Assembly (NCBI GenBank): GCA_934256705.1
Contig: CAKQPF010000001.1
Span: 40,850-104,849, forward strand
Direction: 5' to 3'
Length of the DNA stretch: 64,000 nucleotides
From: an uncultured Prevotella sp.
GTDB lineage: Bacteria; Bacteroidota; Bacteroidia; Bacteroidales; Bacteroidaceae
Under the pieces are notes generated by a model. It was not told the DNA's origin. It saw only the letters and a program-made list of their open reading frames with translations, and ran no database searches. A program made the translations under genes and the position numbers. The stretch's first letter is position 1; every line of letters starts with the position of its first letter. This document shows, in pieces, positions 37,181-59,061 of this stretch.

Positions 37181-37221
37181 GGTGATTTTTCAAGCAAAAA
37201 AGCAAACAATAAGATAATCAA

Positions 37222-45276: not shown

Positions 45277-46611
45277 ATGATAAACAAGATTTTATCTCTC
45301 ATCACAGTATGTATCGGTATGGCATGGCTTTCGTCATGCGGTTCATCAGCCAGAGTGGACGACATGAGCAACATCGGCGCATTCCACAAATACAGTTCAA
45401 TCAAGGAAGCCAACGTCCTCGCCACTGACGACAAGGGCGACGGCGGCGCAGTAGTGGACCTTTACATCGACTACTCCGACTGCATGACCACCGCAAACGA
45501 GTCTCCTTACTACAAGAGCGTGCAGCCTGCCATCATAGCATGCAACCCTAACTACTACTCCATCAAGGGCAATACCATCACATTCGAGTCCAACGACAAG
45601 ATGAAGGTGCACCAGTTGCTCAACTCCATCACCAACGTGGATTTTTCCAACATCAAGGGCGCGGTGGACAGCATCATCAAAAACCGCCACGAAGCCATGA
45701 TCATCACCGACGGTGAATTCTACCAGCAGGGCATCGGAGCAAACCTCAACAACCCTTACCTCGCCGACGAATTCAAGCAGTGGCTCGGCATGGGCCTCGA
45801 TGTCTATGTCTATAGCGAGCCTTACCAGTCCGGCAAGTTCGTGAAAAACCGCTATTACATGCTCTTCACCGACCATCGCCTCAACAACAACATACAGCAG
45901 ATATTCTCACGCGTGGCTCCAAGCCAGGCTGACGTGAAGATGGTGCACCTCTACAGCGGCATCCCTTCTGCCAAGGTGGGCAAGGACGGCGTGGACCTCA
46001 ACGAGCAGCTGCTCGCCACTGACGAGAAGGAAATCAACCAGGCTGCAGGCTACGAATGGCATATCCTCGACGAGAAATGGACCAATGTCTTCGACTATAT
46101 CCTCAATGCTACTGACGACAACGGCAACCCTGTCAAGGGTGGCGACTACTATCTCAGGGGCATAGACCTCGGCGTGACGGCTGAAGATGCTTACAAGCCA
46201 GCTGAAATAGAGGTGAAATGCTATGAGATCAGCGACCTCTATGATAGCTTCAACCCTTCAGCAAAGAAGAAGGTGGCTCTGCCTGAACCGCTCAAGAACA
46301 TGTTTGTCATCGACGAAGCGGCATGGAAGAGCGGCAAGGTGGTGGTGAAACTCGACCCTGCATTCGACGGCAGTTCGCTGACCGGAAGCAACGGCAACCT
46401 TCTCCGCCTCGACATCTGCGTGAAGGAGTCAAAGGAGAATTTCTCATCCAATCCTGAGATAGGCGACAAGTTCAAGTTCGACTCTCCTTACGGTCTCAAC
46501 ACCTCCGTCTATGAGAGCCTCAAGCAGACCCTCCTCGACCCTGCCATCAGTCCGGAAAAGAGCGGCAACCCTGTCATCTACAGCATCTACCTCTCCACTT
46601 ACGGCAATTAA
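45277..46611 (+). CDS. Lipoprotein with vWA-like (MIDAS) domain (cassette gene 1)
   Basis: Lipoprotein signal LSSCGSS. VVDLYIDYSDCMTT resembles a DxSxS MIDAS motif. AMIITDGEF resembles the conserved vWA LTDG motif. Confidence 0.55.
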   Translation: MINKILSLITVCIGMAWLSSCGSSARVDDMSNIGAFHKYSSIKEANVLATDDKGDGGAVVDLYIDYSDCMTTANESPYYKSVQPAIIACNPNYYSIKGNTITFESNDKMKVHQLLNSITNVDFSNIKGAVDSIIKNRHEAMIITDGEFYQQGIGANLNNPYLADEFKQWLGMGLDVYVYSEPYQSGKFVKNRYYMLFTDHRLNNNIQQIFSRVAPSQADVKMVHLYSGIPSAKVGKDGVDLNEQLLATDEKEINQAAGYEWHILDEKWTNVFDYILNATDDNGNPVKGGDYYLRGIDLGVTAEDAYKPAEIEVKCYEISDLYDSFNPSAKKKVALPEPLKNMFVIDEAAWKSGKVVVKLDPAFDGSSLTGSNGNLLRLDICVKESKENFSSNPEIGDKFKFDSPYGLNTSVYESLKQTLLDPAISPEKSGNPVIYSIYLSTYGN

Positions 46612-46797: not shown

Positions 46798-47187
46798 ATG
46801 GCAAGTTTCTCACAGAACATCACAACGGCAGCGCAGCTCCACTCAGCTGAAACCGCTACCTACCTCATTGACGCAGTAATCGGCGTGGCATTCGTCGTTC
46901 TCATCCTCATCGTGGCTAACATGATCTCATGGCAACCGGGAGCTCACGACCCATCACCTGCCAAGCGCAGAACATGGTTCTGGATATTGGGAGTAGCCAC
47001 ACTGTTCACCAATCTCGCCGTGGATTACTTCAACTGGATGCGCCATATCACAAAGGCACAGTTCACCAGCGAATACACCATCCACATGATTGCAGCCTCT
47101 GTAGTGGGCGTGCTCATCTATGGCATCGTGACTTTCGCCATCTGCAAGATGCAGAAGAAGGACACTAAACTGGCTTCTATGTTTTGA
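46798..47187 (+). CDS. Small 3-TM membrane protein (cassette gene 2)
   Basis: 129 aa with three hydrophobic helices. Confidence 0.5.
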   Translation: MASFSQNITTAAQLHSAETATYLIDAVIGVAFVVLILIVANMISWQPGAHDPSPAKRRTWFWILGVATLFTNLAVDYFNWMRHITKAQFTSEYTIHMIAASVVGVLIYGIVTFAICKMQKKDTKLASMF

Positions 47188-47254
47188 TCTGTCATCTGGT
47201 GGGCTTGATGTTTTATGGTAAAAAAAGACATCCCACCTCTTCACCCCACTTTAT

Positions 47255-47287
47255 TTAACGGTGGCAATTTACAGAACCACCCTAAAA
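47255..47287 (+). promoter_or_regulatory. Conserved 32-nt element with GGTGG-N12-CCACC inverted repeat and Bacteroidetes -7-like box, 14 nt upstream of the FtsZ-like gene
   Basis: ttaacggtggcaatttacagaaccaccctaaa. A near-identical copy, ttaacggtggtaatttatagaaccaccctaaa, lies at 59239-59270, 11 nt upstream of the membrane GTPase gene. Confidence 0.55.
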
Positions 47288-47301
47288 AAGAACCATTACC
47301 T

Positions 47302-48873
47302 ATGAATTCATTCAACGTAATAGCGATAGGAGGAACAGGAATGCGCTGTGCAGAGTCTCTCGTACATCTCTGCTCCATGGGTATGTTTGACAATACCGAG
47401 ATACATCTCCTCGCCCTCGACACCGACTACAAGAACGGAAACTTCAAGAGGCTGAAGACTCTGGTCGATAATTACAACAGCATCACGGCCGACAGGGACG
47501 GCGTCGCTTCCGACACGCTCTTCTCGGCAAAGATTGTATATTACACCTTCAGCCCTGACTATAATGCCGGCACCAACTACGACATCGTGGCGCACTATTC
47601 CGATGCCCAGACATCAACGCACGACGAAGACGGAGTGAAATGGCAGGAAAGCGACCTCGCTGACCTCTTCCTCGACCCTAACGTGCGCAAGATGGACCTC
47701 CAGCATGGCTACCGTGCACAGACGCAGATGGGCTCCATGCTCATGTATCATGCCATCAAGGAAGAGGCATACAAGAACAAGGGAAAAGGCTCCGACCTCG
47801 TCAGATACGTGGAAAACCTTATGACAAACTCTAACCATATCGTGTTCCTCTTCGGTTCGGTATTCGGTGGCACCGGCGCTTCTTCCATCCCTGTGCTCCC
47901 TCGTGCGCTGCAGGAGGCTGCCAAGATAATATCCAAGGATAGCAACGGCGACGTGCTCTCAAATAACTATTTCGGCACCGTCATGCTGACAAACTACTTC
48001 TGTTTCGACGTGCCGAACACGCACGAGGCGGTATATGCCACATCCGACAAGTTTGCGCTCAACTCCCAGGCCGCCCTCTCTTTCTACAATGAGGACGAGA
48101 CAATAAGGGATACCTACAAGAGACTCTACCTCATAGGACGTGACAAACCGCGCAACGTGACCCGACACGAGGCTCAGAGCGTGACGGGAGGCGATGCACA
48201 GCGCAATCCGGAAGACTACATCGAACTGCTCGCCGCTTCCGCCGCCTACGACTTCTACCAGAGCGCACTGGCGCATATGCAGAAGCCGGTATTCGGCAAT
48301 GAGGCGCAGATATACTATCGCACGCTGGCTTCCGACGAGGGCGACTGCCTCACATTCGAGTCTTTCTTCGGAGAAGACAAGGACAAGTTTGCACAGAAAT
48401 GTGGCATCATGATGGCTTCCGCCTTCCTCTTCGGACCGCAGGACTTCGCCAACAACCGCCGTAACCACTCTTCCTTCCAGGCGCTCACAGAGCAGAATGT
48501 CAAGGACATACGCGACTATTTCCGCAAGTTCTATGACCTTGAGGAACTGGACGAGACAGAGCCGGGCAGCGGATGGATCAAGCAGATGCAGGAATCTGCC
48601 ATCGACATCGGCTACAAGGGCTTCCTCTTCGACCAGGCGGCATACAGCACATCTGCCAATTCGGCACGAAAGTTCAAGTACAACGACAAGCTCTTCCCTG
48701 CCGGCTCTGCCTACAAGTACAGCGTCTCGCTCATGAGCAGCGCCTTCGACACGTTCAAGAAGGAGTTTGGCGACACCGTCTTCAGTGACAGCGACAAGAC
48801 TGCCGTCTCCGCTCTCCTGAAGCGCACGTACGATACTTTCACACGTCTTTATGGTTTCACTGTAAAAAACTAA
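47302..48873 (+). CDS. Divergent FtsZ/tubulin-superfamily GTPase (cassette gene 3)
   Basis: N-terminal NVIAIGGTGMRCAESL resembles the FtsZ T1 loop. The segment GSMLMYHAIKEE...NHIVFLFGSVFGGTGASSIPVLPRAL parallels FtsZ GRKAAEES...[26 protein letters not shown] (T4/tubulin signature). The C-terminal ~300 aa are unrelated to the FtsZ C-domain. Confidence 0.6.
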   Translation: MNSFNVIAIGGTGMRCAESLVHLCSMGMFDNTEIHLLALDTDYKNGNFKRLKTLVDNYNSITADRDGVASDTLFSAKIVYYTFSPDYNAGTNYDIVAHYSDAQTSTHDEDGVKWQESDLADLFLDPNVRKMDLQHGYRAQTQMGSMLMYHAIKEEAYKNKGKGSDLVRYVENLMTNSNHIVFLFGSVFGGTGASSIPVLPRALQEAAKIISKDSNGDVLSNNYFGTVMLTNYFCFDVPNTHEAVYATSDKFALNSQAALSFYNEDETIRDTYKRLYLIGRDKPRNVTRHEAQSVTGGDAQRNPEDYIELLAASAAYDFYQSALAHMQKPVFGNEAQIYYRTLASDEGDCLTFESFFGEDKDKFAQKCGIMMASAFLFGPQDFANNRRNHSSFQALTEQNVKDIRDYFRKFYDLEELDETEPGSGWIKQMQESAIDIGYKGFLFDQAAYSTSANSARKFKYNDKLFPAGSAYKYSVSLMSSAFDTFKKEFGDTVFSDSDKTAVSALLKRTYDTFTRLYGFTVKN

Positions 48874-48883
48874 TCACTGAATC

Positions 48884-51800
48884 ATGGCAATTACAAGCAA
48901 CCTTTTACCAAAGTGCCTGAAAGGTCACGATACTCAGATGGCAAAGCCCAACACCTGGCAGAAGATGGAGCAGGCCCGACAGTTTATCGACAGCATCGAT
49001 ACCACGGGCGGAGAAATGGACGAAACCGCCAAATTCAATCTCCTCGTCTCCAGTGTGCCATCACCTTGGGCAAGAGTTCATCTCACCCAGCACGCCATCA
49101 TGCCCGGCAATGAAGCCGGCGACACACGCACTCTGACACAGTTCTACGCCTTCATGCGAAGCGAATGGCGCGGACTCATCGCTGCATACGTACTCTATCC
49201 TGAGGACTTCGAACTGACAGACCCTATCGACCTCGTGCCTAAGGACATGGCAAGCAGGTCAGGACAGTTCGACATCCTCAGCACCTACTCCGAGATGCTC
49301 TTCGAGAATGCTCCGCTCTGGAAGCACCAGAAGGGCGATAAGGAGAAGCCAAGGATGCAGTTGCTCTATTATCACAACGGTGACAACCGATTCGTCATCG
49401 GTGGCACTTCGCCGTTCAGCATCCTCTTCGCTGGCATGAACTACAGCATTCCTGACGATGACCAGAGGATATACTGGGTAAACGGCGGCAAGCTCCAGGA
49501 CCCTGCATCCAGGGAATACGAGACTTACTACAAGAAAGACGGTGCCAAATACAACGACAAGCACTTCAACAACCTCAAGAAGCTCTATTCCTTCCTCAAC
49601 GGCATCCAGAAGAATTCCGCTGAATACGTCAATACGCTCAAGAGCATCTGGGACACTGACCATAAACTGATTGACCAGCCGAGCACCACTGATGCAAGAT
49701 ACCATATCATAGGCATGGTGCTCAATGGTGCCGTGGCAAGCTGGATGGACGACATAAAGAGTATTCTCGGCAACGCAATAGCAGAGAAGGCAAAGAACAT
49801 TCCTGTCAACCACAAGCGTCCGGAAGGTCCTCTTGGACAACTGCTTGACATCAAGGCGAAATACTATTGGAGAAATGGCATCTTCTACACCAAGCCGATT
49901 GAGACCGCCAATGTCGTGGCGGAGGTCAAAGATGTGGTGGTGGAAAATGTGGAAAGCCTCTTCATCGACAGCGACTATCTGGCAGGATGGCGCGACTGTG
50001 CCGTGCCTTCCACCGACAATATGGGCAGAGCCACGGCAAGGATGGAAAACGACTACCGCATGTCTCCTGTCCATTTCCTCACCGCCATCGACGAGCAGGA
50101 CGGCAAGACATGGTTCTTTGCCGTGCCGTTCAGTGAGTTCGCACTCATGGATGTATTCAAGCAGGAGTTTGAATCCATCATCAAGGGACTTAACAAGAAC
50201 GTCATCGTCAAGGCGGAAATAAACGGCAAAAGGGTAGATGTATATCTCAAGGCACGCATCGACGGAGAGGGCGAATGGATCAACATACGCAACCGCTCAT
50301 TCAACATCGAGGTGCCTAACTCCACAAGGAAGGTATTCGCATGGCCTAACTTCTGCTCTTCCAAATGGCAGAAGTACTACTATTACAGCGAATTCCCTAC
50401 CAATGCCACCACCGATGTGCAGATGGTGCCGGTGTTTGATGAAATCGCTGACATAGAGGACAGCAACATGCTTAGCAAGGTCTCCAAGGAGGCATTCCTC
50501 AAAATGGTGAAATATCCTGCCACAGCAACGTCCGACACCCATGCATACGAAATAATAAGGACCAACAAACCGCTGAGACGCATCAAGATACGCAAGTGCA
50601 TAGGCAATTCCGTAAGCGAACTCGGATGGCTTGTATTGCGCAGGGTGCAGTACAACAATCCTGACGAGCCGCGGGGCATACAGGTCATCAGAGACACAGA
50701 CAAGTTCTCCGGCACCACCGTGGGATTCGACTTCGGCAGCACCAACTCATGCGCCTACTACTCAGGTCAGGACGCAAATGACATACGTCCGGTTCCGTTC
50801 TCCAACAGAAGACTCGCGATTATCGGCTTCGACAACAAGCCGGTGTTCACAGCGGAGCCTAACGAACTCCTCTTCATCTCCAACGAAGAGCCACGCAACA
50901 AGAACGGACAGATAAAATCATGGCTGCATGAGCACGACCAGATGTTCATCGACCCTAACATGATGGGCGAGGAACTCATCGGCGGCGTGCCTGTCAATGA
51001 GACAAACATCACCGTCAAGAGCATGACTCCTTACGAGATCACCACCAATGCCGGCAAGCTGCATTACAACATGAAGTGGCTCGTGGACTCTGACGGAAGC
51101 CGCAGAAAGGCAGCGTTCGTCAAGATGGTATGGATACAGATATGCGCCGACCTCTTCGCTGAAGGGCTTTATCCAAAGACGCTCAACTGGTCTTACCCAA
51201 GCGCTATGGGCGCAAATGACATGAGTGCATTGCAGAGCATCTACGCTGGCATTCCTTCACCATGTCCTGAATACAAACTTGATGACAGGGAGAAATTCTC
51301 CTTCACCGAGGCTGAAGCCGTCTGCTCATACTTCCTCGACAAGCGAATAGCTCTCGCAGACTACAATCTCTTCGTGGGTATCGACATTGGCGGTTCCACA
51401 TCCGACATCCTCGTGCTCGGCAAGGACACACAGGATTACTGCAACGGACAGCCTGAGACAGCCAAGCCTACCGAACCGCAGCCACAGCCTAAACCGCAAC
51501 CACAGGCGGCTCCTGCCATCAATTATGATGACTATGGCAGGAATGAGCTGGCTGATTTGGCATTCAAGCGCGGGCTCGCCACTGAGAGGGAACTGGACGA
51601 CATGGGCAGAAAGGACATCGTGGAACTGCTCAAGGCCAACGATTCCGGACAGCCAAATTACGACGACATGAGCCGCAGCGAGCTTTGCAAGGAAGTACGC
51701 CGCCTCGGTCTGGAGCATCTCATCGACCTCGAAGAGGTGAGCAGGAGCGAGATAGTGGAATTCCTCAAGAAACATTCCGGCACGCAGTCCATCGACTATA

Positions 51801-53095
51801 CCGCCATGAGCCGCAAGGAACTCTGTGACCTTGTGCGCCAACGCGGACTGGAACACCTCATCGACCTCGAAGAGGCTGGCAAGACGGACATCATCAATTT
51901 CCTTAAGGCGCACGAGACTGCTGCCGCTCCCCAGCCTGTCACTACAGCCGCTCCGGAGCCTCGACAGCAGACCAGAAGTACCGCTCCCACACGCAATGAA
52001 CGTGAAAAGACCGACGGCAGACTCTACACCCAGTGCTCTGTACGCATGGCAGCTGGCGTGTTCTTCGATGCCATCATCGACTCCAAGAAGTTCCGTGACT
52101 GCATCAGGAGTTTCCACGCTTCAAGGACTACCGACATCAAGGTGGAGGACATCGACAGCATCGAGGTGGACAAACTCAGAGCTCCTTATTATCTGAACAA
52201 CATCTTCGACCAGCTGCACGGCGACCAGGACTTCAAGAAGTTCTACGAATACCTCAAGATCGACGTGCCGTTCGTGTTCTCTCTCCCTGCCTACATCGTG
52301 GGCGCGCTCATGGCTTACTCGGGCATGCTCGTCAGAAACGCCATCATCACGCAGAGGATGGACAAGGTGGAAGAGGTGCATTTCCGCTACTTCGGCAAGG
52401 GTGGCCGTCTCTTCGAGTGGCTCTTCTTCACATTCGAGAAGGAGAAAGTGGAGGCTTATCTCGATGCTTGCTTCGAGGTGGGCATAAAGAATTCCGCCAT
52501 CAACGAGGCGCTCCACCGCAGTGATGACTTCGCCATCAGGTGCATATATGACAACTGCAACGAGTATAACTACGGCTGCAACGAAAACTCCGAGAACAAA
52601 TCCGAGGTGGCACGCGGTCTCGTATCACGTCATGAGATCACCGGCATCCAGCCTAACCGCAAGAATATCTACGGCAAGCGAAGCGACAAGGCGAAGAATG
52701 AATATGACGCACGCAAACAGGAGGTTATCGGTGAGGTGGGCATCAAGCTCAATGGCGTGGAGCAGGATGAGCTTTCTCTCGTCAATGACAACTTCTATGA
52801 GAGCAAGGAAGCTATATCCTTGCCGCGCACATTCCATAATTTCTCCGAATTCATGGAGATATTCCTGCAGTTTATAGGCAAAGAGGCTGCTCTCATTCAA
52901 ACAAAAGAACTTGAAGAGAAGATTGACAACGTGGAGAATGTGTGGAGTTTCATCATTAACGACCCTGAATACAAGAAGTACCTCGCAAACATCATCAAAA
53001 ACAATGATGACTCTTACCGTATGCCTGTATTCATCGCCACTGCCCTCTATTACCTCGAAGAGGTGCTGCTGAAGGAAGTCTTTGCTACCAATTGA
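48884..53095 (+). CDS. 1403-aa protein with Hsp70/actin-fold (ASKHA) ATPase core and three inserted HeH/Rho-N-like repeats (cassette gene 4)
   Basis: Phosphate-1-like TVGFDFGSTNSCAYY (compare DnaK IGIDLGTTNSCVAV) at aa ~605. Phosphate-2-like VGIDIGGSTSDILVLG at aa ~830. A PQPQPKPQPQ linker is followed by 3 x ~38-aa repeats (ELADLAFKRGLATERELDDM / ELCKEVRRLGLEHLIDLEE / ELCDLVRQRGLEHLIDLEE). An adenosine-motif-like FGKGGRLFEW comes later. The N-terminal ~590 aa are unassigned. Confidence 0.55.
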   Translation: MAITSNLLPKCLKGHDTQMAKPNTWQKMEQARQFIDSIDTTGGEMDETAKFNLLVSSVPSPWARVHLTQHAIMPGNEAGDTRTLTQFYAFMRSEWRGLIAAYVLYPEDFELTDPIDLVPKDMASRSGQFDILSTYSEMLFENAPLWKHQKGDKEKPRMQLLYYHNGDNRFVIGGTSPFSILFAGMNYSIPDDDQRIYWVNGGKLQDPASREYETYYKKDGAKYNDKHFNNLKKLYSFLNGIQKNSAEYVNTLKSIWDTDHKLIDQPSTTDARYHIIGMVLNGAVASWMDDIKSILGNAIAEKAKNIPVNHKRPEGPLGQLLDIKAKYYWRNGIFYTKPIETANVVAEVKDVVVENVESLFIDSDYLAGWRDCAVPSTDNMGRATARMENDYRMSPVHFLTAIDEQDGKTWFFAVPFSEFALMDVFKQEFESIIKGLNKNVIVKAEINGKRVDVYLKARIDGEGEWINIRNRSFNIEVPNSTRKVFAWPNFCSSKWQKYYYYSEFPTNATTDVQMVPVFDEIADIEDSNMLSKVSKEAFLKMVKYPATATSDTHAYEIIRTNKPLRRIKIRKCIGNSVSELGWLVLRRVQYNNPDEPRGIQVIRDTDKFSGTTVGFDFGSTNSCAYYSGQDANDIRPVPFSNRRLAIIGFDNKPVFTAEPNELLFISNEEPRNKNGQIKSWLHEHDQMFIDPNMMGEELIGGVPVNETNITVKSMTPYEITTNAGKLHYNMKWLVDSDGSRRKAAFVKMVWIQICADLFAEGLYPKTLNWSYPSAMGANDMSALQSIYAGIPSPCPEYKLDDREKFSFTEAEAVCSYFLDKRIALADYNLFVGIDIGGSTSDILVLGKDTQDYCNGQPETAKPTEPQPQPKPQPQAAPAINYDDYGRNELADLAFKRGLATERELDDMGRKDIVELLKANDSGQPNYDDMSRSELCKEVRRLGLEHLIDLEEVSRSEIVEFLKKHSGTQSIDYTAMSRKELCDLVRQRGLEHLIDLEEAGKTDIINFLKAHETAAAPQPVTTAAPEPRQQTRSTAPTRNEREKTDGRLYTQCSVRMAAGVFFDAIIDSKKFRDCIRSFHASRTTDIKVEDIDSIEVDKLRAPYYLNNIFDQLHGDQDFKKFYEYLKIDVPFVFSLPAYIVGALMAYSGMLVRNAIITQRMDKVEEVHFRYFGKGGRLFEWLFFTFEKEKVEAYLDACFEVGIKNSAINEALHRSDDFAIRCIYDNCNEYNYGCNENSENKSEVARGLVSRHEITGIQPNRKNIYGKRSDKAKNEYDARKQEVIGEVGIKLNGVEQDELSLVNDNFYESKEAISLPRTFHNFSEFMEIFLQFIGKEAALIQTKELEEKIDNVENVWSFIINDPEYKKYLANIIKNNDDSYRMPVFIATALYYLEEVLLKEVFATN

Positions 53096-53194: not shown

Positions 53195-55237
53195 ATGGCT
53201 AAATACCTGCAATTATATCTCGACAACGACTACATAATACCCATTGGAATGGGCGACTCAGGCAACGTCAACAAATACGTTGACCAGCAGGCGTCAAGGC
53301 GTATGTGGCTCTTCTTCTCGAATGCCACCAGCAATGGCGCATACAATTCCAGCGAGACCAACAAGGCAAATGCCGAAGCCGGAAAGGAAGGCTTCTTCGG
53401 GAATTTCTGGAACCACATTGCCAAAGCCGACAAAGTGCCGGGCGAACCCTACCTTTTCATCGAGCTGCTCGACCTCTCCGGCATCATCTCCACGCTGAGG
53501 GAATGGGCAAACATGACACTTTTCACGGAGTCACCTGAGGTGGTGCTCCATTTCTCGTCCGTCATACCTCTCAAGGCAAGGCGCGCTTTCGCCGATTACA
53601 TCGAGAAGAAACTGGGCAAGATACGCAGTTACAGCAAGGAAATCAATGACTTGCTCGCAGAGAAGGTGAAATGGGACAACAGTTCCATGACCGCTGCCTT
53701 CGGTGACCAGATGCTCGTCATACAGTCTTCCGGCAATGACATCCTCCTTTCCGTGCAGACATGGTGCGGAGAGCAGTTCATGCAGGGCGACGAAGCCGTC
53801 CGGCTGAAGAAGAAAGGCAGTGAGTTCCTCAAGATGGAGCTCGCCAAGATGGTTGTCGATTTCTATGAGAAAAGCAACAACATGCTCCTGCAGCCGCAGA
53901 AAGAGCAGGAGTATGTCTATCAGATGCAGTTCACTGAGACATGGCTGAAAGGACGGAAAGGCGACAGTGATTTCTGGGTCGATAACTTCCATTACTCGCA
54001 GAATCCGGGCAAGATATACCCGCCTGTACTCATTGACGGCAAGCAGCTCAACCTCATCGAGAAGGAAGCCATACGCAATACCATCAATGCCATATCCAGA
54101 TACAGCAGCGAGAACATACGAAACAACCTCCTGCATACCATCCTTATGGGCGACGTCTTCAGGGAAGAGATCTTCCTGAGAGACTGTGTCAGCGTCACCT
54201 CAAGCGACGGCAAATACACTTTCTTTGACGACAACGCCATTCAGGAGGCTCTCGGACGCTACAATGTAAAATACTCCACGCTGGTGGAGGATCTCCGTGA
54301 CCTGGAGCGCACATACGCCGACAAGGCTAACGAGAGGGCAAGGATAGGCACATACGTGCATAATGCCGAAGAGCTCGGAATGCTGAAGTCTCTCTCCGAA
54401 GAGGCTGAGACGAAGATAAAGAAAGCTTACGACCGTGTCAACGATGCCAACAAGGACCTCAGGGAGTCATGGGATTCCTTGATGCGCCACAGCGACTTCG
54501 AGAAGGCGAAGGACACTATTGCAAAGATGTCCACAAGCGACGAACTGACCATTGCCAAGGCGGAAGCCATGGAGTGCCTGAAATCCATCGAGCAGAAGAA
54601 CTCACTGCTCATCGACCTTCACCAGCTGCTGGAGGTGCGAGACATCGTGGAGAGCATCAGAGGCAGGGAAACGGCCATCAGAACGTATGTCAAGCAGGTG
54701 GACGACCTTCGCGAACTGCCCGACAAGCTCCGTGACCTCGTGAGGAAATATGAGGACATCTACCCCAAGTATCTGGAAGTCAAGTCACAGTTTGACCATG
54801 AGGCGACCCTCGTGGGCAGGCGCAGACTGATAGAAGAGATGAAGCCGCTGACTATGGAACCGATGCCTGTGGTGGATGTAGAGACCATCAAGGGCACCAT
54901 CAGCGTCAAGAGCGAGTCGTCAGGCGGCTTCCTCGGCATAGGAGCGAAGAAGTGCATCACCATCCGTCTCCACATAGACAAGCCGCTCCCGTGCCGTGGT
55001 GTCCTCGTCATTGCTCCGGATGTCATCATCAATATCCCGGACGGAAGATGCGGTATCCACTGCATCGACGTGGAAAAAGGCGAGGAAGGCGATGTCATAG
55101 AGATGAGGACCGACCTCCAGTCGCTCGGTCTGAACAAGTCTGCCAAGTCCCTCTTCATCAAGTTCTGGCCCCACGAAGATGAGAAAGTGCCTATCAACCG
55201 CTTTGAGATCCGCGGCACAGGCACGGTGAAAGTGTGA
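53195..55237 (+). CDS. 680-aa hypothetical protein with central coiled-coil and C-terminal beta-rich domain (cassette gene 5)
   Basis: Heptad-rich helical stretch at aa ~340-540. No recognisable catalytic motif. N-terminal IIPIGMGDSGNV is of unclear significance. Confidence 0.45.
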   Translation: MAKYLQLYLDNDYIIPIGMGDSGNVNKYVDQQASRRMWLFFSNATSNGAYNSSETNKANAEAGKEGFFGNFWNHIAKADKVPGEPYLFIELLDLSGIISTLREWANMTLFTESPEVVLHFSSVIPLKARRAFADYIEKKLGKIRSYSKEINDLLAEKVKWDNSSMTAAFGDQMLVIQSSGNDILLSVQTWCGEQFMQGDEAVRLKKKGSEFLKMELAKMVVDFYEKSNNMLLQPQKEQEYVYQMQFTETWLKGRKGDSDFWVDNFHYSQNPGKIYPPVLIDGKQLNLIEKEAIRNTINAISRYSSENIRNNLLHTILMGDVFREEIFLRDCVSVTSSDGKYTFFDDNAIQEALGRYNVKYSTLVEDLRDLERTYADKANERARIGTYVHNAEELGMLKSLSEEAETKIKKAYDRVNDANKDLRESWDSLMRHSDFEKAKDTIAKMSTSDELTIAKAEAMECLKSIEQKNSLLIDLHQLLEVRDIVESIRGRETAIRTYVKQVDDLRELPDKLRDLVRKYEDIYPKYLEVKSQFDHEATLVGRRRLIEEMKPLTMEPMPVVDVETIKGTISVKSESSGGFLGIGAKKCITIRLHIDKPLPCRGVLVIAPDVIINIPDGRCGIHCIDVEKGEEGDVIEMRTDLQSLGLNKSAKSLFIKFWPHEDEKVPINRFEIRGTGTVKV

Positions 55238-55312: not shown

Positions 55313-56536
55313 ATGGCAAAGACAATATTATGCCCATACTGCTTCGAGTCGTTCAAGAACACCGAGGTTATGGTGCAATGCGAAAACTACACCACACGCA
55401 CCATCGACGGAATGCCGAAGGACGTATGTCAGAGAGAAGAAAACAAGCGTTTCAACAACCATTGGGACAGCATGGTAATGTCAAAGCACGTCTTCTATCC
55501 GCATATCGGACTGAAAGACAAGCTCATGGGCTATAAGCCAAGGGCGTGCGAATGCGACCAGTGCGGCGCTCCATCCACCAGATTCGTATGTCCTCACTGC
55601 AACAACTGGCTGCCTACCGAGATGATCGAGAAAGGCTCTGAAATCATTTCCGTCATAGGCGGTCCGGCAAGCGGCAAGTCAAACTATATCGTAGCCCTCA
55701 TCCAGCAGCTACAGAAGTACGGCTACAAGCTACAGCTCGGACAGATCCTACCGCAGCTCGTGGGCAGGACTAAGGCGGAATATACCCGCAATCTCTATGA
55801 GAAAGCCAAGGACTCCATCTTCAAGGACCATCAGCCAGTGGCTAAGACTGCCGTCACATCCCACCCTATCCCATGGATCTTCCGACTCGAAAGCCACGCC
55901 ACGAAGAAGGCTGTCTATCTCGTCTTCTACGATACAGCAGGCGAGAGTTTCAAGGATCCGGAGGAAATAAAGAAGAATGCCAAATACCTGGAGAAGTCAA
56001 AGGCGGTCATAGTGCTCCTCGACACCCTCTCTCTGCCTTATATCCAGAAGATTCTCGCTGCCAAGAAGATTGTCAATCCCGACAAGGCTACACCGTTCGG
56101 CGAGACCATGGATGCGCTCAAGAACTTCGCCACCGAGAATCCTCAGCTACTCAAGACACCGTTCGCGTTCGTCATGAGCAAGTTCGACTCCGTCATACAG
56201 AACCAGGAAGACCTCGACTTCGACATCGAACCGTTCAAGCACAACAGTTCGTTCATACAGACCGGCACTCTCTCCCTCAGCGAGGTGGACGAGGCAAGCA
56301 AGACCATACAGAACTATATGGAGAACCACTGGGACGAAGGTGCCCTCGGATATGACATCACCCAGAAATGGGGCGACAACGCAAGATTCTTCGGTGTCTC
56401 AGCTCTCGGTGCAATGACTAACGACAAGATGAAGATCGGAATCCCTGACGATGAGCAGGTAAAGCCGTTCAGAGTAATGGACCCACTCATCTGGCTGCTC
56501 CATAAAGTCGGTGGATTCGGCATACCTGTCCAGTAA
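55313..56536 (+). CDS. Zinc-ribbon + Ras-like small GTPase (cassette gene 6)
   Basis: N-terminal CPYC...C...C...CECDQC...CPHC (two CxxC pairs plus extras). G1 VIGGPASGKS, G3 FYDTAGESF (DTAGE as in Ras DTAGQE), G4-like VMSKFD. Confidence 0.6.
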   Translation: MAKTILCPYCFESFKNTEVMVQCENYTTRTIDGMPKDVCQREENKRFNNHWDSMVMSKHVFYPHIGLKDKLMGYKPRACECDQCGAPSTRFVCPHCNNWLPTEMIEKGSEIISVIGGPASGKSNYIVALIQQLQKYGYKLQLGQILPQLVGRTKAEYTRNLYEKAKDSIFKDHQPVAKTAVTSHPIPWIFRLESHATKKAVYLVFYDTAGESFKDPEEIKKNAKYLEKSKAVIVLLDTLSLPYIQKILAAKKIVNPDKATPFGETMDALKNFATENPQLLKTPFAFVMSKFDSVIQNQEDLDFDIEPFKHNSSFIQTGTLSLSEVDEASKTIQNYMENHWDEGALGYDITQKWGDNARFFGVSALGAMTNDKMKIGIPDDEQVKPFRVMDPLIWLLHKVGGFGIPVQ

Positions 56537-56589: not shown

Positions 56590-59061
56590 ATGAAATACTA
56601 TCACGTTATATACAATTCCTCCGAATGCTCAATGCTCGGGGGCACTGGTTTCGGACTGAGAACTGCCACTGAAGGCACGCCTGACTCACTCCTCAAGGCC
56701 ATCGACGCGCTCAATTTCTTTCCTGCCGACGACTGGGAGACATATCAGAACACGCCTACACCGGAGCAGATAATGCAGAATCCGGAGTGCATGGAGAATA
56801 TCCCGATGGACTATGCCGTCACCGCAATCTCTGACGACCAGGGAAACAGATACCATCTCATAGCGAGAAGGGCTTACGTCGGCTTCGACTATTCATTCTA
56901 CAAGACCGGCTCCGCAACGCGTCCGGGAAATTTCGTCATAGACTATTACATCTTCGAACAGGCTCCCGACAGCTCCGCTTACCAGATTCTCTATGAGAAA
57001 GCGCTTCCGGAGTCCAACCATTTCATTCCGGCTTCCGTCAGACCTACTGCCGACAATGAGGAAATGCGCACCATCTCCATCGGCAAGCAGCCGCTGCTGC
57101 CAGTGGAGGACAAGCCTTTCACTGCCGACGTAGAGAACGCCCTCGACAAGGATGTGGTCAAACTCTTCTTCCATTTCCTCGCCGCAAGGCAGGCAGGAAA
57201 GAAGCTATATGTCAAGGCTGACAGACAGCGCGCGCTCAAGATCACAGCAGACTTCTACCGTATGCTCGACGTAAAGTCTGCCACGGAAATACATACTCGC
57301 GTCAACCACCGTGCGGAGGGTCCTAACGAGAACTTCGACATCTACTTCATCCTCGACTCTTATCCGCATCAGGTCTATTCGGGAGGCTTCTACAGCTATA
57401 TCGAGCTCGACTCCGCCACCATGCCCGACACCGACGAGGCAAAGACCTTCAGCCACGAACTGGAGGACTTCGTCTCCGCTTCGTTCTCGGAAAACAAGAG
57501 CGACATCGATGACATCCTACGCTGGCTACTCATGCCGGAATATTCTTCGGTGAAGAAACTCTCCAAGACCACCAACGACGCATTCTTCCTCTACTGCATA
57601 CAGCCGGGAAATTTCTCCTACAGCAATTTCAGAGACAGCCAGGGACGGCTCAATGAAGAGTTCCTCAATGTCCTCATGCCTTACACCAAGAAGGAGAAAA
57701 CCAACGCCAGACTGTTCGACTCTCTCGTCACCGAGACCATCAACGATGCCACATACCAGGACATCATCCTGCTCATCAAGGAGTTCCATAAGTTTGAAGC
57801 CCTCGGCTTTGACATGAAGGAAAACAATGAGGCGGTCAGACAGCACGTCAGCGAGTGCATCCTCACAAGCCCCGACGTGCTCAGAGCCGTGCTCGACAAG
57901 ATAGGATATGACAGCGTGGTGCAGTTCTTCGACAAGGACGTTTTCGAGCGAAACGGCGACTTCACGCTCGCCAAAGTGCTCGATGCGGATATGCTGAAGC
58001 TCTACCGCCACTTCCTCTCCGATGCCGAACTGCGCGACAGGGAGACCATGCTCTACGACCGTTTCCTCGCATGCGGCATGGAGAGCAAGTATCTCATCCC
58101 TATCATCGACGACATCTACGGCGGGGAAAACGACGGCAAACTTCTCTTCTTCATCCATGTGCTCAAGGATGAACAGAAGCCGTTCGGCACCGTATGGCCT
58201 TACATGGAGCATTATCTCCAATCCACACCTTGCCCGGATTTCCTCAAGCTCTTCCAGCATAAGCTCACCGACGGACAGTACGCACCGATGTTCTATTTCT
58301 CCATCAAGGCGCACAAAGCCGACTTCTCGTCCATCGAAAGCATACAGGCACTCACCGATATTCTCCACGGCAACGAGAAACTCAAGGCGCTCATACAGGC
58401 AGGCTACCATCAGGACGGCATATATTCCGACTTCAAGGGCAATGTAAAGACGCTCTATATGCAGCATCATGACAAGGCTCAGGAAGCGCTCACCGCCATA
58501 AATGTCAATATCCTCGGATTCTTCACTGCCGTCAAGGACGACCAGCTCGCAGACCTCGCACTCTACCTCGACATGGTGGCAAACAATGGTTACCAGAGGC
58601 TCCACGAGAGGAAAGTGCCGGTGGTGTTCTCCCTCGTCAGCCTGCTCAATGACGATGAGACGTTCGGACAGATGATTCCTGCATTCGTCAAGGCTTACCA
58701 GAAGGGCGACATCCCTGCCGAAGAGCTTGCCAGACTATATGACAAGTTCAACCACGGCGTAAGCACCGGCGACATGATCGACGACCTCGACGCGAAGCAT
58801 TCCGTACCTATGCTCGGCATCATCATCTGCAAGATGAAGAAAATGCCGTTCGAACAGGCCTATGCCCTCGCCAAAGACCTCGGCATAGACAAGGACACGA
58901 GAGCCAAGGTGATGGAGGAAAACTATCAGAAAGAATACAAGTCATACCTCCGCAGCAAGAAGATAAAAGGATTCTTCAAGTCCATCATACGCATCTTCAT
59001 CCCGGCAGACAAGGACAAGAAGGATGCGAAAGCCAAGGACAATGCCGGAAAAAAGAAGTAG
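56590..59061 (+). CDS. 823-aa alpha-helical hypothetical protein with Lys-rich C-terminal tail (cassette gene 7)
   Basis: No TM segment. N-terminal SMLGGTGFGLRT glycine-rich loop. C-terminal KDKKDAKAKDNAGKKK. Confidence 0.45.
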   Translation: MKYYHVIYNSSECSMLGGTGFGLRTATEGTPDSLLKAIDALNFFPADDWETYQNTPTPEQIMQNPECMENIPMDYAVTAISDDQGNRYHLIARRAYVGFDYSFYKTGSATRPGNFVIDYYIFEQAPDSSAYQILYEKALPESNHFIPASVRPTADNEEMRTISIGKQPLLPVEDKPFTADVENALDKDVVKLFFHFLAARQAGKKLYVKADRQRALKITADFYRMLDVKSATEIHTRVNHRAEGPNENFDIYFILDSYPHQVYSGGFYSYIELDSATMPDTDEAKTFSHELEDFVSASFSENKSDIDDILRWLLMPEYSSVKKLSKTTNDAFFLYCIQPGNFSYSNFRDSQGRLNEEFLNVLMPYTKKEKTNARLFDSLVTETINDATYQDIILLIKEFHKFEALGFDMKENNEAVRQHVSECILTSPDVLRAVLDKIGYDSVVQFFDKDVFERNGDFTLAKVLDADMLKLYRHFLSDAELRDRETMLYDRFLACGMESKYLIPIIDDIYGGENDGKLLFFIHVLKDEQKPFGTVWPYMEHYLQSTPCPDFLKLFQHKLTDGQYAPMFYFSIKAHKADFSSIESIQALTDILHGNEKLKALIQAGYHQDGIYSDFKGNVKTLYMQHHDKAQEALTAINVNILGFFTAVKDDQLADLALYLDMVANNGYQRLHERKVPVVFSLVSLLNDDETFGQMIPAFVKAYQKGDIPAEELARLYDKFNHGVSTGDMIDDLDAKHSVPMLGIIICKMKKMPFEQAYALAKDLGIDKDTRAKVMEENYQKEYKSYLRSKKIKGFFKSIIRIFIPADKDKKDAKAKDNAGKKK

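What the first reader, a model, noticed from the sequence alone, without database searches (positions are those of the whole stretch)
47302..48873. Divergent FtsZ/tubulin-superfamily GTPase lacking the FtsZ C-terminal domain
Residues 6-20 (NVIAIGGTGMRCAESL) and 160-215 (…GSMLMYHAIKEEAY…NHIVFLFGSVFGGTGASSIPVLPRAL) line up motif for motif with FtsZ T1 and T3/T4 (…GRKAAEES…[26 protein letters not shown]), including the tubulin signature GGTG(A/T)S. The spacing between T1 and T4 is ~180 aa versus ~90 in FtsZ, so there are large insertions. The C-terminal ~300 aa have no resemblance to the FtsZ/tubulin activation domain. Distant FtsZ-like families with conserved non-division operon partners have been described (FtsZl1/FtsZl2), but I cannot assign this protein to either from sequence alone. 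Its placement in a TIR/GTPase cassette would be a new context.
Basis: partly seen in the sequence, partly recalled or inferred. Interest (0 to 1): 0.8.

Follow-up and report, generated by a model that had tools for sequence, protein, structure and literature searches.

The report
Tubulin-like GTPase paired with giant HSP70-like protein
This gut Bacteroidales gene encodes a very divergent tubulin/FtsZ-type nucleotide-binding protein that lacks the usual polymer-activating half, always sits next to a giant HSP70-like protein, and here belongs to a predicted but untested GTPase/TIR conflict system.

Summary
Window 47302-48873 (+) encodes a 523-aa protein, here called TubL. It carries a T1-like GGTG loop and a T4-like FGGTGAS loop 179 residues apart.

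The window protein falls below Pfam thresholds. Its wider family matches Tubulin_2 (PF13809, the "FtsZ-like" group of Makarova and Koonin) in 36 of 47 members.

The context is not new in kind. Downstream lie a two-zinc-ribbon DO-GTPase, a GAP1-N2 protein, a membrane DO-GTPase and a TIR protein. This is the GTPase-centric conflict system of Kaur et al. 2020, which already lists tubulin, HSP70 and TIR parts.

Three points go beyond that paper:
- TubL is coupled to a 1,100-1,400-aa HSP70-like protein in both Bacteroidota and cyanobacterial plasmids.
- In Bacteroidales a five-gene core occurs in about 72-75 of 80 loci.
- The DO-GTPase module is confined to one TubL clade (22 of 80 loci).

Verdict: a new variant of a known kind, with no experimental characterisation found.

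The parts
45277..46611 (+). g0: 444-aa predicted lipoprotein, first gene of the conserved five-gene core. It has a signal peptide with Cys21 in SSCG. Its D65-Y-S-D-C69 and T144-D-G-E147 motifs recall a vWA MIDAS site; this is unverified.
   Evidence: ORF. N-terminal hydrophobic segment. Motif positions. Found upstream of TubL in 72 of 80 related loci by jackhmmer. No Pfam or PDB sequence support for a vWA domain.
46798..47187 (+). g1: 129-aa small membrane protein with two hydrophobic segments (residues 17-49 and 93-119). Core gene.
   Evidence: Present in 73 of 80 loci.
47302..48873 (+). TubL: 523-aa divergent tubulin/FtsZ-superfamily protein, the subject of the finding. The N-terminal nucleotide-binding domain spans about residues 1-325 (nt 47302-48276). 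The family-specific, mostly helical C-terminal domain spans about residues 326-523.
47314..47361 (+). T1-like glycine loop region of TubL, NVIAIGGTGMRCAESL (residues 5-20). G10, G11, T12, G13, M14, R15 and C16 are invariant in the 32-sequence family alignment.
   Evidence: Pfam Tubulin and Tubulin_2 profile starts align here in homologs.
47704..47733 (+). T3-like loop of TubL, HGYRAQTQMG (residues 135-144). The broad-family consensus is GFRGxPxIGA. It follows a 50-residue insertion (residues 84-134).
   Evidence: The HMM alignment to CetZ2 starts here.
47866..47883 (+). T4 signature loop of TubL, GGTGAS (residues 189-194), within the invariant FGSVFGGTGAS.
   Evidence: Aligned to the T4 loops of CetZ, CetZ2 and FtsZ.
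48214..48255 (+). H7-like helix of TubL, DYIELLAASAAYDF (residues 305-318). It follows the conserved TGGxxQxN stretch (T6-like). This is the last strongly conserved block.
48884..53095 (+). g3: 1,403-aa giant protein that starts 10 nt after the TubL stop codon. It has a helical and beta-rich N-terminal half and an HSP70-like (ASKHA) nucleotide-binding domain. The domain motifs are phosphate-1 VGFDFGSTNS (nt 50720-50749), phosphate-2 GIDIGGSTSD (nt 51377-51406) and FGKGGRLF (nt 52391-52414). A roughly 200-aa repeat insert follows phosphate-2.
53195..55237 (+). g4: 680-aa protein with an N-terminal globular part, a central coiled coil (about residues 355-560) and a C-terminal beta-rich part. Core gene.
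   Evidence: Only coiled-coil-type matches. Present in 63 of 80 loci.
55313..56536 (+). g5: 407-aa DO-GTPase. It has an N-terminal Cys-rich region (CPYC; CDQC...CPHC), a P-loop GGPASGKS, a Walker B DTAGE with the family-typical Glu, and SKFD.
   Evidence: Pfam DO-GTPase2 at E 7.8e-8, 32.7 bits against a cut-off of 27. Motifs.
56590..59061 (+). g6: 823-aa GAP1 protein of the N2 type.
   Evidence: The window protein matches GAP1-N2 only weakly (E 0.051). Eleven of 17 orthologs match GAP1-N2 (best E 5.7e-6) and 2 match GAP1-M. The start at 56590 is conserved in the alignment.
59282..60934 (+). g7: 550-aa membrane DO-GTPase. It has N-terminal transmembrane segments, CPFC...CPHC, a P-loop GLPESGKT, DVGGE and VKAD.
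   Evidence: Pfam DO-GTPase2 at E 1.2e-7, 32 bits against a cut-off of 27. TM segments. Motifs.
60947..61984 (+). g8: 345-aa protein with a TIR domain, a charged coiled coil and a C-terminal transmembrane anchor. It occupies the variable 'effector slot' of the cassette.
   Evidence: Pfam TIR_2 at E 4.5e-9, 37.3 bits against a cut-off of 28. TM segment at residues 311-341. The slot holds other genes in relatives.
62165..62557 (+). g9: 130-aa predicted lipoprotein. Its membership of the cassette is uncertain.
   Evidence: Present on identical contigs. Detected in only 1 of the 80 related loci, by tblastn; it was not included in the jackhmmer survey.

Best explanation
TubL is a cytoplasmic nucleotide-binding protein of the tubulin/FtsZ superfamily. 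It belongs to a short, coiled-coil-less Bacteroidales branch of the 'FtsZ-like'/Tubulin_2 assemblage. It keeps the N-terminal GTP-binding domain (T1 GGTG, T3-like, T4 GGTGAS, T5/T6-like loops and an H7-like helix), with two large insertions. The canonical T7/activation domain is replaced by a family-specific, mostly helical domain of about 200 aa. (Shown: fold, motifs, domain boundary. Inferred: GTP binding.)

TubL works as an obligate partner of the giant HSP70-like ATPase g3. The two genes are separated by 10 nt and are co-inherited across phyla. They sit in a membrane-associated module with a lipoprotein (g0), a small membrane protein (g1) and a coiled-coil protein (g4).

In the window's clade this module is attached to the DO-GTPase / GAP1-N2 / membrane DO-GTPase switch of the GTPase-centric conflict systems. 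In the window itself it is also attached to a membrane-anchored TIR protein.

Most likely mechanism (inferred, following Kaur et al. 2020). A cue at the envelope or in the cytoplasm flips the DO-GTPase/GAP1 switch. This licenses nucleotide-dependent assembly of a TubL-g3(-g4) higher-order complex at the membrane. That assembly acts as a threshold or scaffold that concentrates and activates the variable effector. The effector is TIR here and an Endonuclease_NS-family nuclease in a relative. The outcome is growth arrest or death of the infected cell. Because the T7 loop is absent, any TubL self-assembly and GTP turnover must use a non-canonical interface or a partner protein.
For: Fold:
- The AF2 model has pLDDT 85.6.
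- Foldseek top hits are mostly tubulins.

Sequence:
- T1 and T4 are invariant.
- Pfam Tubulin matches 27 of 32 family members and Tubulin_2 matches 21 of 32. One homolog reaches the Tubulin_2 cut-off over residues 6-214.
- In the broader family, Tubulin_2 matches 36 of 47 members, best E 1e-10.
- The only PDB sequence matches are CetZ2, CetZ and FtsZ at T3-T4.

Missing T7 domain:
- No acidic residue is conserved after 317.
- Distant relatives share only positions 4 to about 325.

Partner:
- g3 is adjacent to TubL in 75 of 80 loci.
- g3 is also adjacent next to relatives of about 26% identity on cyanobacterial plasmids and in metagenome contigs.

Switch and effector:
- Two DO-GTPase2 proteins score above the Pfam cut-off, both with the Walker-B Glu.
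- GAP1-N2 is supported at family level.
- TIR_2 scores above the cut-off.
- The architecture (two-ZnR GTPase plus multi-TM GTPase) fits the published GAP1-N2 description.

Conflict-system hallmarks:
- The family is patchy, found in 325 of 185,579 species genomes.
- Genomic neighbours differ between relatives, and some include transposases.
- The 3' slot is variable.
- The module is plasmid-borne in cyanobacteria.
Against: - There is no experimental evidence for GTP binding, polymerisation or defence.
- PADLOC models find nothing convincing in the cassette.
- There are no phage-encoded relatives.
- Sequence-only evidence for the window protein itself is sub-threshold.
- About 40 loci with enough downstream DNA carry the five-gene core without any DO-GTPase or GAP1. 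The core need not be a conflict device, and no toxin-like domain is recognisable in it.
- The FNIII-repeat component that defines published GAP1-N2 systems was not detected.
- The window's TIR may lack the catalytic Glu. This reading is memory-based and untested.
Confidence: 0.55

Rival explanations
1. The five-gene core (lipoprotein, membrane protein, TubL, HSP70-like giant, coiled-coil protein) is a membrane-remodelling or envelope-associated cytoskeletal machine. Possible roles are vesicle formation or envelope maintenance, as Makarova and Koonin proposed for FtsZl1 operons. The DO-GTPase/TIR genes are then a secondary add-on in one clade.
For: - The core occurs without DO-GTPase or GAP1 in most loci, and DO-positive loci form a single clade.
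- A lipoprotein and membrane proteins are always present.
- No toxin domain is recognisable in the core.
- The FtsZl1 precedent is in PMC2875224.
Against: - Distribution is patchy (325 species genomes).
- The module is on plasmids in cyanobacteria.
- Downstream genes are variable and conflict-like: TerD, a retropepsin-like protease, TIR and a nuclease.
- Some relatives are flanked by transposases.
- These bacteria have canonical FtsZ (established knowledge).
Confidence: 0.25
2. TubL does not polymerise. It is a monomeric or dimeric GTP-dependent switch or co-factor that regulates the ATPase cycle or client binding of the HSP70-like g3, acting like a nucleotide-exchange or targeting factor.
For: - The T7/activation domain is lost, and no acidic residue is conserved after 317.
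- The TubL and g3 genes are tightly and deeply conserved as neighbours, with a 10-nt gap.
- The C-terminal domain varies across the wider family, as expected for a partner-binding module.
Against: - Every characterised member of the superfamily self-assembles head to tail (established knowledge).
- A conserved H7-like block and surface insertions with invariant D118 and D121 could form a new longitudinal interface.
- Nothing tested here distinguishes the two modes.
Confidence: 0.25
3. TubL is a TubZ/PhuZ-like DNA-segregation motor of a mobile element.
For: - Relatives are plasmid-borne in Picosynechococcus and Gloeothece.
Against: - The locus is chromosomal here, lying between the thi genes and metH.
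- No phage relatives were found.
- No T7 loop or C-terminal tail is present.
- The partners are membrane, lipoprotein, HSP70-like and GTPase proteins, and no gene in the operon matches a DNA-binding family in Pfam or NCBIfam.
- Pfam affinity is to Tubulin_2, not TubZ.
Confidence: 0.04
4. The protein is not tubulin-like at all. It is a generic Rossmann-fold (SDR-like) dinucleotide-binding protein whose glycine loops mimic T1 and T4 by chance.
For: - The window protein's own Pfam Tubulin hit is below threshold.
- HMM searches of PDB sequences give no significant hit.
Against: - Family-wide Tubulin and Tubulin_2 hits reach E 1e-10.
- The T4 signature lies at the S4-H4 junction exactly as in CetZ and FtsZ.
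- NCBI names a homolog a tubulin-like domain protein.
Confidence: 0.03

Closest known systems
FtsZ-like family 1 (FtsZl1; Makarova and Koonin 2010) = Pfam Tubulin_2 (PF13809)
   Same: - It has a divergent N-terminal tubulin/FtsZ GTP-binding domain with a GGTG-type T1 and family-specific inserts between T1 and T4.
- It has no FtsZ_C or Tubulin_C domain, and no recognisable T7.
- It has an alpha-helical C-terminal region.
- Its operons contain membrane proteins and a divergent P-loop GTPase.
- It coexists with canonical FtsZ.
- The broader TubL family hits Tubulin_2 in 36 of 47 members.
   Different: - TubL is only 523 aa and has no coiled coil. Typical FtsZl1 proteins are about 900-1,100 aa, with an extended coiled coil.
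- The window protein itself is below the Tubulin_2 threshold.
- The AF2 model suggests S6-T6-H7 equivalents are present, whereas the 2010 paper could not align beyond H5.
- TubL is invariably paired with a giant HSP70-like protein, which the 2010 paper did not report.
- No vWA partner was demonstrated.
- The Bacteroides caccae FtsZl1 in that paper (913 aa) has a different neighbourhood.
Tubulin- and HSP70-containing GAP1-N2 DO-GTPase conflict systems (Kaur, Burroughs, Iyer and Aravind 2020)
   Same: - It has a DO-GTPase with N-terminal zinc ribbons, a downstream GAP1-N2 protein and a second DO-GTPase with about four N-terminal TM helices.
- It has a Walker-B glutamate.
- It is linked to a tubulin homolog and an HSP70-type protein.
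- It has a variable effector. TIR is listed for the sister GAP1-N1 systems.
- It is predicted to act at the membrane.
   Different: - The paper restricts the tubulin theme to Firmicutes and Actinobacteria, and treats the tubulin and HSP70 themes as non-overlapping. Here both are in one operon, in Bacteroidota.
- No FNIII-repeat, GrpE or DnaJ component was detected.
- The HSP70-like protein is a 1,100-1,400-aa giant that Pfam's HSP70 model does not detect.
- From TubL's side, the DO-GTPase/GAP1 pair is the accessory part and TubL-g3 is the conserved core.
CetZ, FtsZ, tubulin, TubZ and PhuZ (structurally characterised superfamily members)
   Different: - Sequence identity is 9-19%.
- There is about 90 aa of extra sequence between T1 and T4.
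- There is no C-terminal activation domain or T7 catalytic acidic residue.
- The genomic partners are different.
FtsZ-like family 2 (FtsZl2)
   Same: It is a divergent FtsZ-like protein of similar length, with a non-FtsZ C-terminal region of about 300 aa and no coiled coil.
   Different: According to PMC2875224, FtsZl2 is confined to Proteobacteria, retains T6, H7 and T7, and has no conserved gene neighbours. TubL is in Bacteroidota and Cyanobacteriota, lacks T7 and has a strongly conserved operon.

Membership tests
Tubulin/FtsZ superfamily | N-terminal Rossmann-like GTPase-domain fold (S1-S6, H1-H7) | tested here: met
Tubulin/FtsZ superfamily | Glycine-rich T1 loop and the T4 signature GGGTG[ST]G | tested here: met
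   T1 is GGTGMRC (residues 10-16) and T4 is FGGTGAS (188-194), both invariant. T4 is a near match, not an exact one: the first G is replaced by F and the last G by S.
Tubulin/FtsZ superfamily | Pfam Tubulin (PF00091) above the gathering score | tested here: not met
   The window protein scores 18.9 bits against a cut-off of 33. The best family member has E 5.4e-6, still below the cut-off.
Tubulin/FtsZ superfamily | C-terminal activation domain with a T7 loop carrying a catalytic Asp or Glu | tested here: not met
Tubulin/FtsZ superfamily | GTP binding and hydrolysis, and GTP-dependent head-to-tail polymerisation | not testable with these tools
   This needs biochemistry or EM.
FtsZl1 / Pfam Tubulin_2 (PF13809) | Match to the Tubulin_2 model | tested here: inconclusive
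   The window protein has no hit at E of 1 or below. Twenty-one of 32 close homologs hit the model, and one reaches the cut-off (27.4 against 27). Thirty-six of 47 members of the wider family hit it, best E 1e-10.
FtsZl1 / Pfam Tubulin_2 (PF13809) | Extended coiled coil followed by an alpha-helical C-terminal domain (majority architecture, about 1,000 aa) | tested here: not met
   The protein is 523 aa. The model has no long coiled coil, only a compact, mostly helical domain. The coiled coil lies in the separate protein g4.
FtsZl1 / Pfam Tubulin_2 (PF13809) | Operon with a vWA-domain protein and a divergent P-loop GTPase | tested here: inconclusive
   GTPases are present: two DO-GTPase2 proteins. 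A vWA partner is only suggested by the DxSxC and TDGE motifs in g0, with no HMM support.
FtsZl2 | Proteobacterial distribution, conserved T6/H7/T7, no conserved gene context | tested here: not met
   The family is in Bacteroidota and Cyanobacteriota. There is no T7. The operon is strongly conserved. No direct sequence comparison was done.
DO-GTPase / GAP1-N2 conflict system (Kaur et al. 2020) | One or two DO-GTPases (TRAFAC clade, Walker-B Glu). In GAP1-N2 systems, one has two zinc ribbons and a second has about four N-terminal TM helices. | tested here: met
   PF19993 scores 32.7 and 32.0 bits against a cut-off of 27. The motifs are DTAGE and DVGGE, with CxxC pairs. TM segments are in g7.
DO-GTPase / GAP1-N2 conflict system (Kaur et al. 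2020) | GAP1 protein (N2-type N domain, M and C domains) encoded downstream of a DO-GTPase | tested here: met
   g6 lies directly downstream of g5. GAP1-N2 matches 11 of 17 orthologs (best E 5.7e-6) and GAP1-M matches 2 of 17. The window copy alone is weak (E 0.051).
DO-GTPase / GAP1-N2 conflict system (Kaur et al. 2020) | Protein with rapidly evolving FNIII repeats | tested here: not met
   No fn3-type Pfam hit was found in any cassette protein at the E-value limits used. Beta-rich regions in g3 and g4 were not resolved further.
DO-GTPase / GAP1-N2 conflict system (Kaur et al. 2020) | Constant core plus variable effector components between relatives | tested here: met
   The slot after the TM DO-GTPase holds TIR-TM in the window, Endonuclease_NS in L091, small ORFs in L092 and IS66 in L093.
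HSP70 family (for partner g3) | ASKHA nucleotide-binding domain with phosphate-1 and phosphate-2 motifs, closest to HSP70/HSP110 | tested here: met

The most novel reading that the evidence does not exclude
TubL and the giant HSP70-like g3 form an autonomous two-nucleotide (GTP plus ATP) assembly machine that is conserved from Bacteroidota to cyanobacterial plasmids. It would be a tubulin-fold protein that has lost T7 and instead uses an HSP70/actin-fold partner to build or gate a membrane-attached higher-order structure. That would be a previously unrecognised hybrid cytoskeletal or immune scaffold. The DO-GTPase/GAP1 switch and effectors such as TIR would have been bolted on later, in one lineage.
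Probability: 0.3. Interest if true: 0.8.

Novelty: new variant of a known kind. Interest (0 to 1): 0.5.

Why it matters
Divergent "FtsZ-like" tubulins have been known from sequence analysis since 2010. They were placed in predicted conflict systems in 2020. My searches of the held papers found no experimental study of any of them.

This locus offers a compact 523-aa representative from abundant human-gut Bacteroidales. Relatives occur in Segatella copri, Phocaeicola vulgatus, Phocaeicola sartorii and Prevotella jejuni. Its partner set is clear.

If TubL binds GTP and assembles without a T7 loop, that would extend what a tubulin fold can do. If the TubL-HSP70-like pair gates a TIR or nuclease effector, it would be a new kind of cytoskeleton-like thresholding device in bacterial immunity.

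The finding that the tubulin-like/HSP70-like pair, and not the DO-GTPase pair, is the deeply conserved unit changes which components should be studied first.

Tried and rejected
- **PADLOC defence models.** Nothing convincing for any cassette protein.
- **NCBIfam.** Nothing for TubL, g3 or g6.
- **Sequence or profile HMM searches of PDB sequences with TubL.** No significant hit. With a deeper profile, only CetZ2, CetZ and FtsZ appear, at E 0.24-4.8.
- **hhalign of the broad TubL profile against E. coli FtsZ.** The result was only a local S4-T4-S5 alignment at E 0.037. I use it as motif correspondence, not as proof.
- **vWA test for g0.** The profile against PDB sequences and Pfam on 22 members both found nothing. 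hhalign against the cyanobacterial upstream gene gave E 0.13. The vWA idea stays a motif-level lead.
- **g4 profile.** Only coiled-coil matches.
- **tblastn against phages.** No match, so a phage-derived tubulin is unlikely.
- **Sigma-70 promoter and terminator scan.** Not above the shuffled background, and not suited to Bacteroidota.
- **Rebuilding FtsZl1 and FtsZl2 profiles from the 2010 supplement.** Abandoned, because the interleaved alignment would need about 22 look-ups.
- **Supplement of Kaur et al.** The held copy does not contain the neighbourhood tables. I could not check whether any Bacteroidota tubulin-containing loci were in their data.
- **Rejected readings.** A generic Rossmann/SDR protein and a TubZ-like plasmid partition motor; see the rival explanations.
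Full report
**1. The observation**

Window 47302-48873 (+) is an intact ORF of 523 codons plus a stop. An in-frame ATG at 47215 would add 29 residues. All 31 aligned homologs begin at the methionine of 47302. Gene callers on identical metagenome contigs also aa.

The quoted peptides are present:
- NVIAIGGTGMRCAESL at residues 5-20.
- GSMLMYHAIKEEAY at residues 144-157.
- NHIVFLFGSVFGGTGASSIPVLPRAL at residues 178-203.

The two glycine loops lie 179 residues apart (G10 to G189). The pattern GGTG[AST][SG] occurs once in 41,187 residues of long six-frame ORFs in the window.

**2. Is it tubulin-like?**

By sequence alone the window protein is marginal:
- Pfam Tubulin gives E 0.002 and 18.9 bits against a cut-off of 33, covering only the T4 region.
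- phmmer and a 32-sequence profile find nothing significant among PDB sequences.

The family-level signal is consistent:
- The family is large: 1,644 clusters at 90% identity in the first search, and 1,934 clusters at 50% identity with E of 1e-3 or below.
- Of 32 aligned members, 27 hit Pfam Tubulin and 21 hit Tubulin_2.
- One member reaches the Tubulin_2 cut-off over residues 6-214.
- Among 47 members of the wider family, 36 hit Tubulin_2 (best E 1e-10) and 20 hit Tubulin.
- The deeper profile's only PDB matches are CetZ2, CetZ and FtsZ, aligned at H3-S4-T4-H4.

The fold evidence is the strongest:
- An AlphaFold2 model built on the alignment is confident (pLDDT 85.6, pTM 0.90).
- Foldseek's top hits are mostly tubulins, at low TM-scores.

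**3. Anatomy of TubL**

The model's secondary-structure order maps onto the canonical GTPase domain as follows:

| Element | Residues or sequence |
|---|---|
| S1, T1 (GGTGMRC), H1 | strand 2-9, helix 10-26 |
| S2 and the conserved ALDTDxxNGNF | strand 32-39 |
| H2, S3 | helix 47-61, strand 77-83 |
| Insertion with invariant D118 and D121 | 84-134 |
| T3-like GYRAQTxxG; broad consensus GFRGxPxIGA | 136-144 |
| H3 | helix 141-159 |
| Extra helix | 161-179 |
| S4, T4 (FGGTGAS), H4 | strand 180-186, helices 192-195 and 199-210 |
| S5 (LTNYF, aligned to FtsZ VTKPF) | strand 223-230 |
| H5 (NSQAAL) | helix 248-264 |
| S6 | strand 272-279 |
| T6-like TGGxxQxN | 295-302 |
| H7-like helix DYIELLAAxAAYDF | 305-318 |

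After about residue 325 conservation drops. The chain is then mostly helical.

Three results show that the canonical activation domain and T7 loop are absent:
- Distant relatives of 480-540 aa share only profile positions 4 to about 325.
- No position after 317 is conserved as Asp or Glu.

It is about 200 aa.

**4. Surroundings in the window**

All genes from 45277 to 62557 are on the + strand, with gaps of 10-220 nt:

| Gene | Description | Evidence |
|---|---|---|
| g0 | Lipoprotein, 444 aa | |
| g1 | Small membrane protein with two hydrophobic segments, 129 aa | |
| TubL | Tubulin-like protein, 523 aa | see sections 1-3 |
| g3 | 1,403 aa, starts 10 nt after the TubL stop | |
| g4 | 680 aa, central coiled coil | |
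| g5 | DO-GTPase with CxxC pairs; PF19993 32.7 bits against a cut-off of 27; Walker B DTAGE | |
| g6 | GAP1 of the N2 type: window copy E 0.051, 11 of 17 orthologs hit GAP1-N2, 2 hit GAP1-M | |
| g7 | Multi-TM, CxxC pairs, DO-GTPase; 32.0 bits against a cut-off of 27 | |
| g8 | TIR_2 (37.3 bits against a cut-off of 28), charged coiled coil, C-terminal TM anchor | |

The cassette lies between the thiamine genes and metH. It is identical in several human-gut metagenome assemblies.

**5. The partner g3**

Alignments show invariant VGIDFGSxNT, GIDxGGSTSD and FGKGGRLF motifs. A profile search touches HSP70, mortalin and actin only at E of about 1, but exactly at those motifs.

- Then MreB (16.2), PilM, EutJ and actin-like proteins.

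So g3 carries an HSP70-like ASKHA nucleotide-binding domain behind a helical and beta-rich N-terminal half of about 570 aa.

**6. Comparative genomics**

TubL relatives occur in 325 of 185,579 species-representative genomes. Among the 80 best loci kept, nearly all are Bacteroidales, including Segatella copri, Phocaeicola vulgatus, P. sartorii, Prevotella jejuni, Porphyromonas uenonis and Xylanibacter rarus.

An iterative profile search over these 80 loci gave the following counts. Many misses are contig ends.

| Gene | Loci with a hit (of 80) |
|---|---|
| g0 | 72 |
| g1 | 73 |
| g3 | 75 |
| g4 | 63 |
| DO-GTPase | 22 |
| GAP1 | 22 |

About 40 loci have enough downstream DNA to judge and still lack DO-GTPase and GAP1. 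They carry other genes instead: TerD, CW_7-repeat membrane proteins, and a retropepsin-like protease with SH3.

In a neighbour-joining tree of TubL rooted on the cyanobacterial homolog, the DO-GTPase-positive loci form one clade. It is sister to a large DO-negative clade.

Within the positive clade the gene after the membrane DO-GTPase varies:
- TIR-TM in the window.
- Endonuclease_NS, with GAP1 fused to the second GTPase, in L091.
- Small ORFs in L092.
- IS66 in L093.

Genomic flanks also differ between relatives.

Outside Bacteroidales, tblastn finds relatives of about 26% identity on Picosynechococcus and Gloeothece plasmids. The Gloeothece protein is annotated as a tubulin-like domain protein. 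These loci have the same local order: a small gene, TubL, then a gene of about 1,100 aa.

The large neighbour is a g3 homolog:
- hhalign gives probability 99.6% and E 3.7e-24.
- hmmsearch gives E from 1e-25 to 9e-13 in four distant loci.

The TubL-g3 pair is therefore the deep core. In Bacteroidales the five-gene module is the standard unit, and the DO-GTPase/GAP1 switch is a clade-specific addition or retention.

**7. Comparison with the literature**

Makarova and Koonin 2010 (PMC2875224):
- They defined FtsZl1 as a divergent N-terminal FtsZ domain with inserts between T1 and T4, no alignable T6-H7 or C-terminal domain, a coiled coil and a helical C-terminal region.
- FtsZl1 operons contain vWA proteins, a new GTPase, kinases and OmpA.
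- They defined FtsZl2 as proteobacterial, with T6/H7/T7 kept and no conserved context.

Santana-Molina et al. 2023 (PMC9871819) equate this FtsZ-like group with Pfam Tubulin_2.

Kaur et al. 2020 (PMC7159879):
- They described the DO-GTPase/GAP1 "GTPase-centric" conflict systems.
- GAP1-N2 systems have a two-ZnR GTPase, and sometimes a second GTPase with four N-terminal TM helices.
- These systems carry an FNIII-repeat protein and lineage-specific themes. The paper describes the themes as non-overlapping.
- The tubulin theme is said to be restricted to Firmicutes and Actinobacteria.
- The HSP70 theme comes with GrpE and DnaJ.
- TIR is listed among the effectors of GAP1-N1 systems.

The window cassette fits the GAP1-N2 switch architecture. 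It departs in four ways:
- It is in Bacteroidota.
- It has tubulin-like and HSP70-like proteins together.
- No FNIII, GrpE or DnaJ component was detectable.
- Its effector is TIR.

My searches of the held papers found no experimental work on these proteins.

**8. Mechanism**

Shown here:
- The tubulin-type fold and loops.
- The loss of T7.
- The obligate genomic pairing with an HSP70-like protein.
- The membrane-associated partners.
- The DO-GTPase/GAP1-N2 switch.
- The variable effector slot.

Inferred:
- TubL binds GTP.
- TubL and g3, probably with the coiled-coil g4, form a nucleotide-controlled assembly at the membrane. g1 would tether it, and the lipoprotein g0 would link it to the envelope.
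- In this clade the DO-GTPase/GAP1 switch controls that assembly.
- The assembly concentrates and activates the effector, giving an abortive-infection-type response. This follows the logic Kaur et al. proposed.

Whether TubL polymerises is open. Without T7, hydrolysis in a filament would need a new interface or a partner.

The main rival is a non-immune envelope or membrane-remodelling machine. The many core-only loci support it. A second rival is a non-polymerising GTP switch that regulates g3.

**9. Verdict**

The claim of a new context is not supported in kind, because a published computational framework already covers tubulin homologs in GTPase-centric conflict systems.

This is a new variant: a short Bacteroidales/cyanobacterial branch of the FtsZ-like tubulins. 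It is defined by its coupling to a giant HSP70-like protein and a five-gene membrane module. It is widespread in human-gut bacteria, and I found no experimental characterisation.

Noticed in passing
window 51416-52018 (g3 residues about 845-1045): An insert of about 200 aa sits directly after the HSP70-like phosphate-2 motif. It has Pro/Gln-rich linkers flanking three repeats of about 40 aa, such as MSRSELCKEVRRLGLEHLIDLEEVSRSEIVEFLKKH. By eye these look like HeH/SAP-type helix-extended-helix motifs. Shorter g3 homologs lack the insert, and some insert-bearing homologs have a GYF_2 domain; whether GYF_2 sits at the same position was not checked.
   Followed up: partly
window 60947-61984 (g8, TIR protein): Many TIR domains have an S-x-W-C-x-x-E-L-type stretch that holds the catalytic Glu. 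This protein reads SDYVKAAV there, so the Glu may be missing and the TIR may be non-catalytic. This reading is from memory and was not tested by alignment.
   Followed up: no
window 45469-45483 and 45706-45717 (g0): The motifs D65-Y-S-D-C69 and T144-D-G-E147 are conserved across orthologs and resemble a vWA MIDAS site. That would echo the vWA partners of FtsZl1 operons. No Pfam or PDB sequence match supports it.
   Followed up: partly
window 37097-37190 (+): A TPP riboswitch (Rfam RF00059, 67.1 bits against a gathering score of 54.3) lies ahead of the thiamine biosynthesis genes that flank the cassette upstream.
   Followed up: yes
window 62681-62727: A 20-bp inverted repeat (hairpin) lies just downstream of g9. 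It may mark the 3' end of the transcription unit.
   Followed up: no
L091 17492-21934 and 22819-23640: In a relative whose g3 is 59% identical to the window's, a single 1,480-aa product with a DO-GTPase2 hit occupies the position of the GAP1 and second DO-GTPase genes, apparently a fusion of the two. An Endonuclease_NS gene occupies the position of the window's TIR gene. Upstream are a DDE transposase fragment and VapE-like and HU-HIG genes.
   Followed up: partly
L030 17492-18747; L055 17441-19955: Core-only loci (Phocaeicola sartorii, Segatella copri) carry other genes downstream of g4 instead of DO-GTPase and GAP1. These are a TerD-domain protein, CW_7-repeat membrane proteins, a lipoprotein and a retropepsin-like aspartyl protease with SH3.
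   Followed up: partly
L086 16313-17560; L093 2220-2471: TM2-domain genes lie near the TubL-g3 module both on a Picosynechococcus plasmid and in a Bacteroidales metagenome contig. This could be coincidence or a further accessory component.
   Followed up: no
L063 and L076 5822-11575; L079 9983-11584: Three TubL homologs (39-41% identity) lack detectable g0, g1, g3 and g4. In L063 and L076 a 1,361-aa gene lies immediately upstream instead of a giant gene downstream.
   Followed up: no
L087 8911-14031 (Prevotella sp. oral taxon 299, second replicon): A much more distant TubL-like ORF (25% identity, E 3e-6) is again followed by a 1,158-aa ORF. That ORF is not recognised by the g3 HMM. It may represent a second, older paralogous module in Prevotella.
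   Followed up: partly
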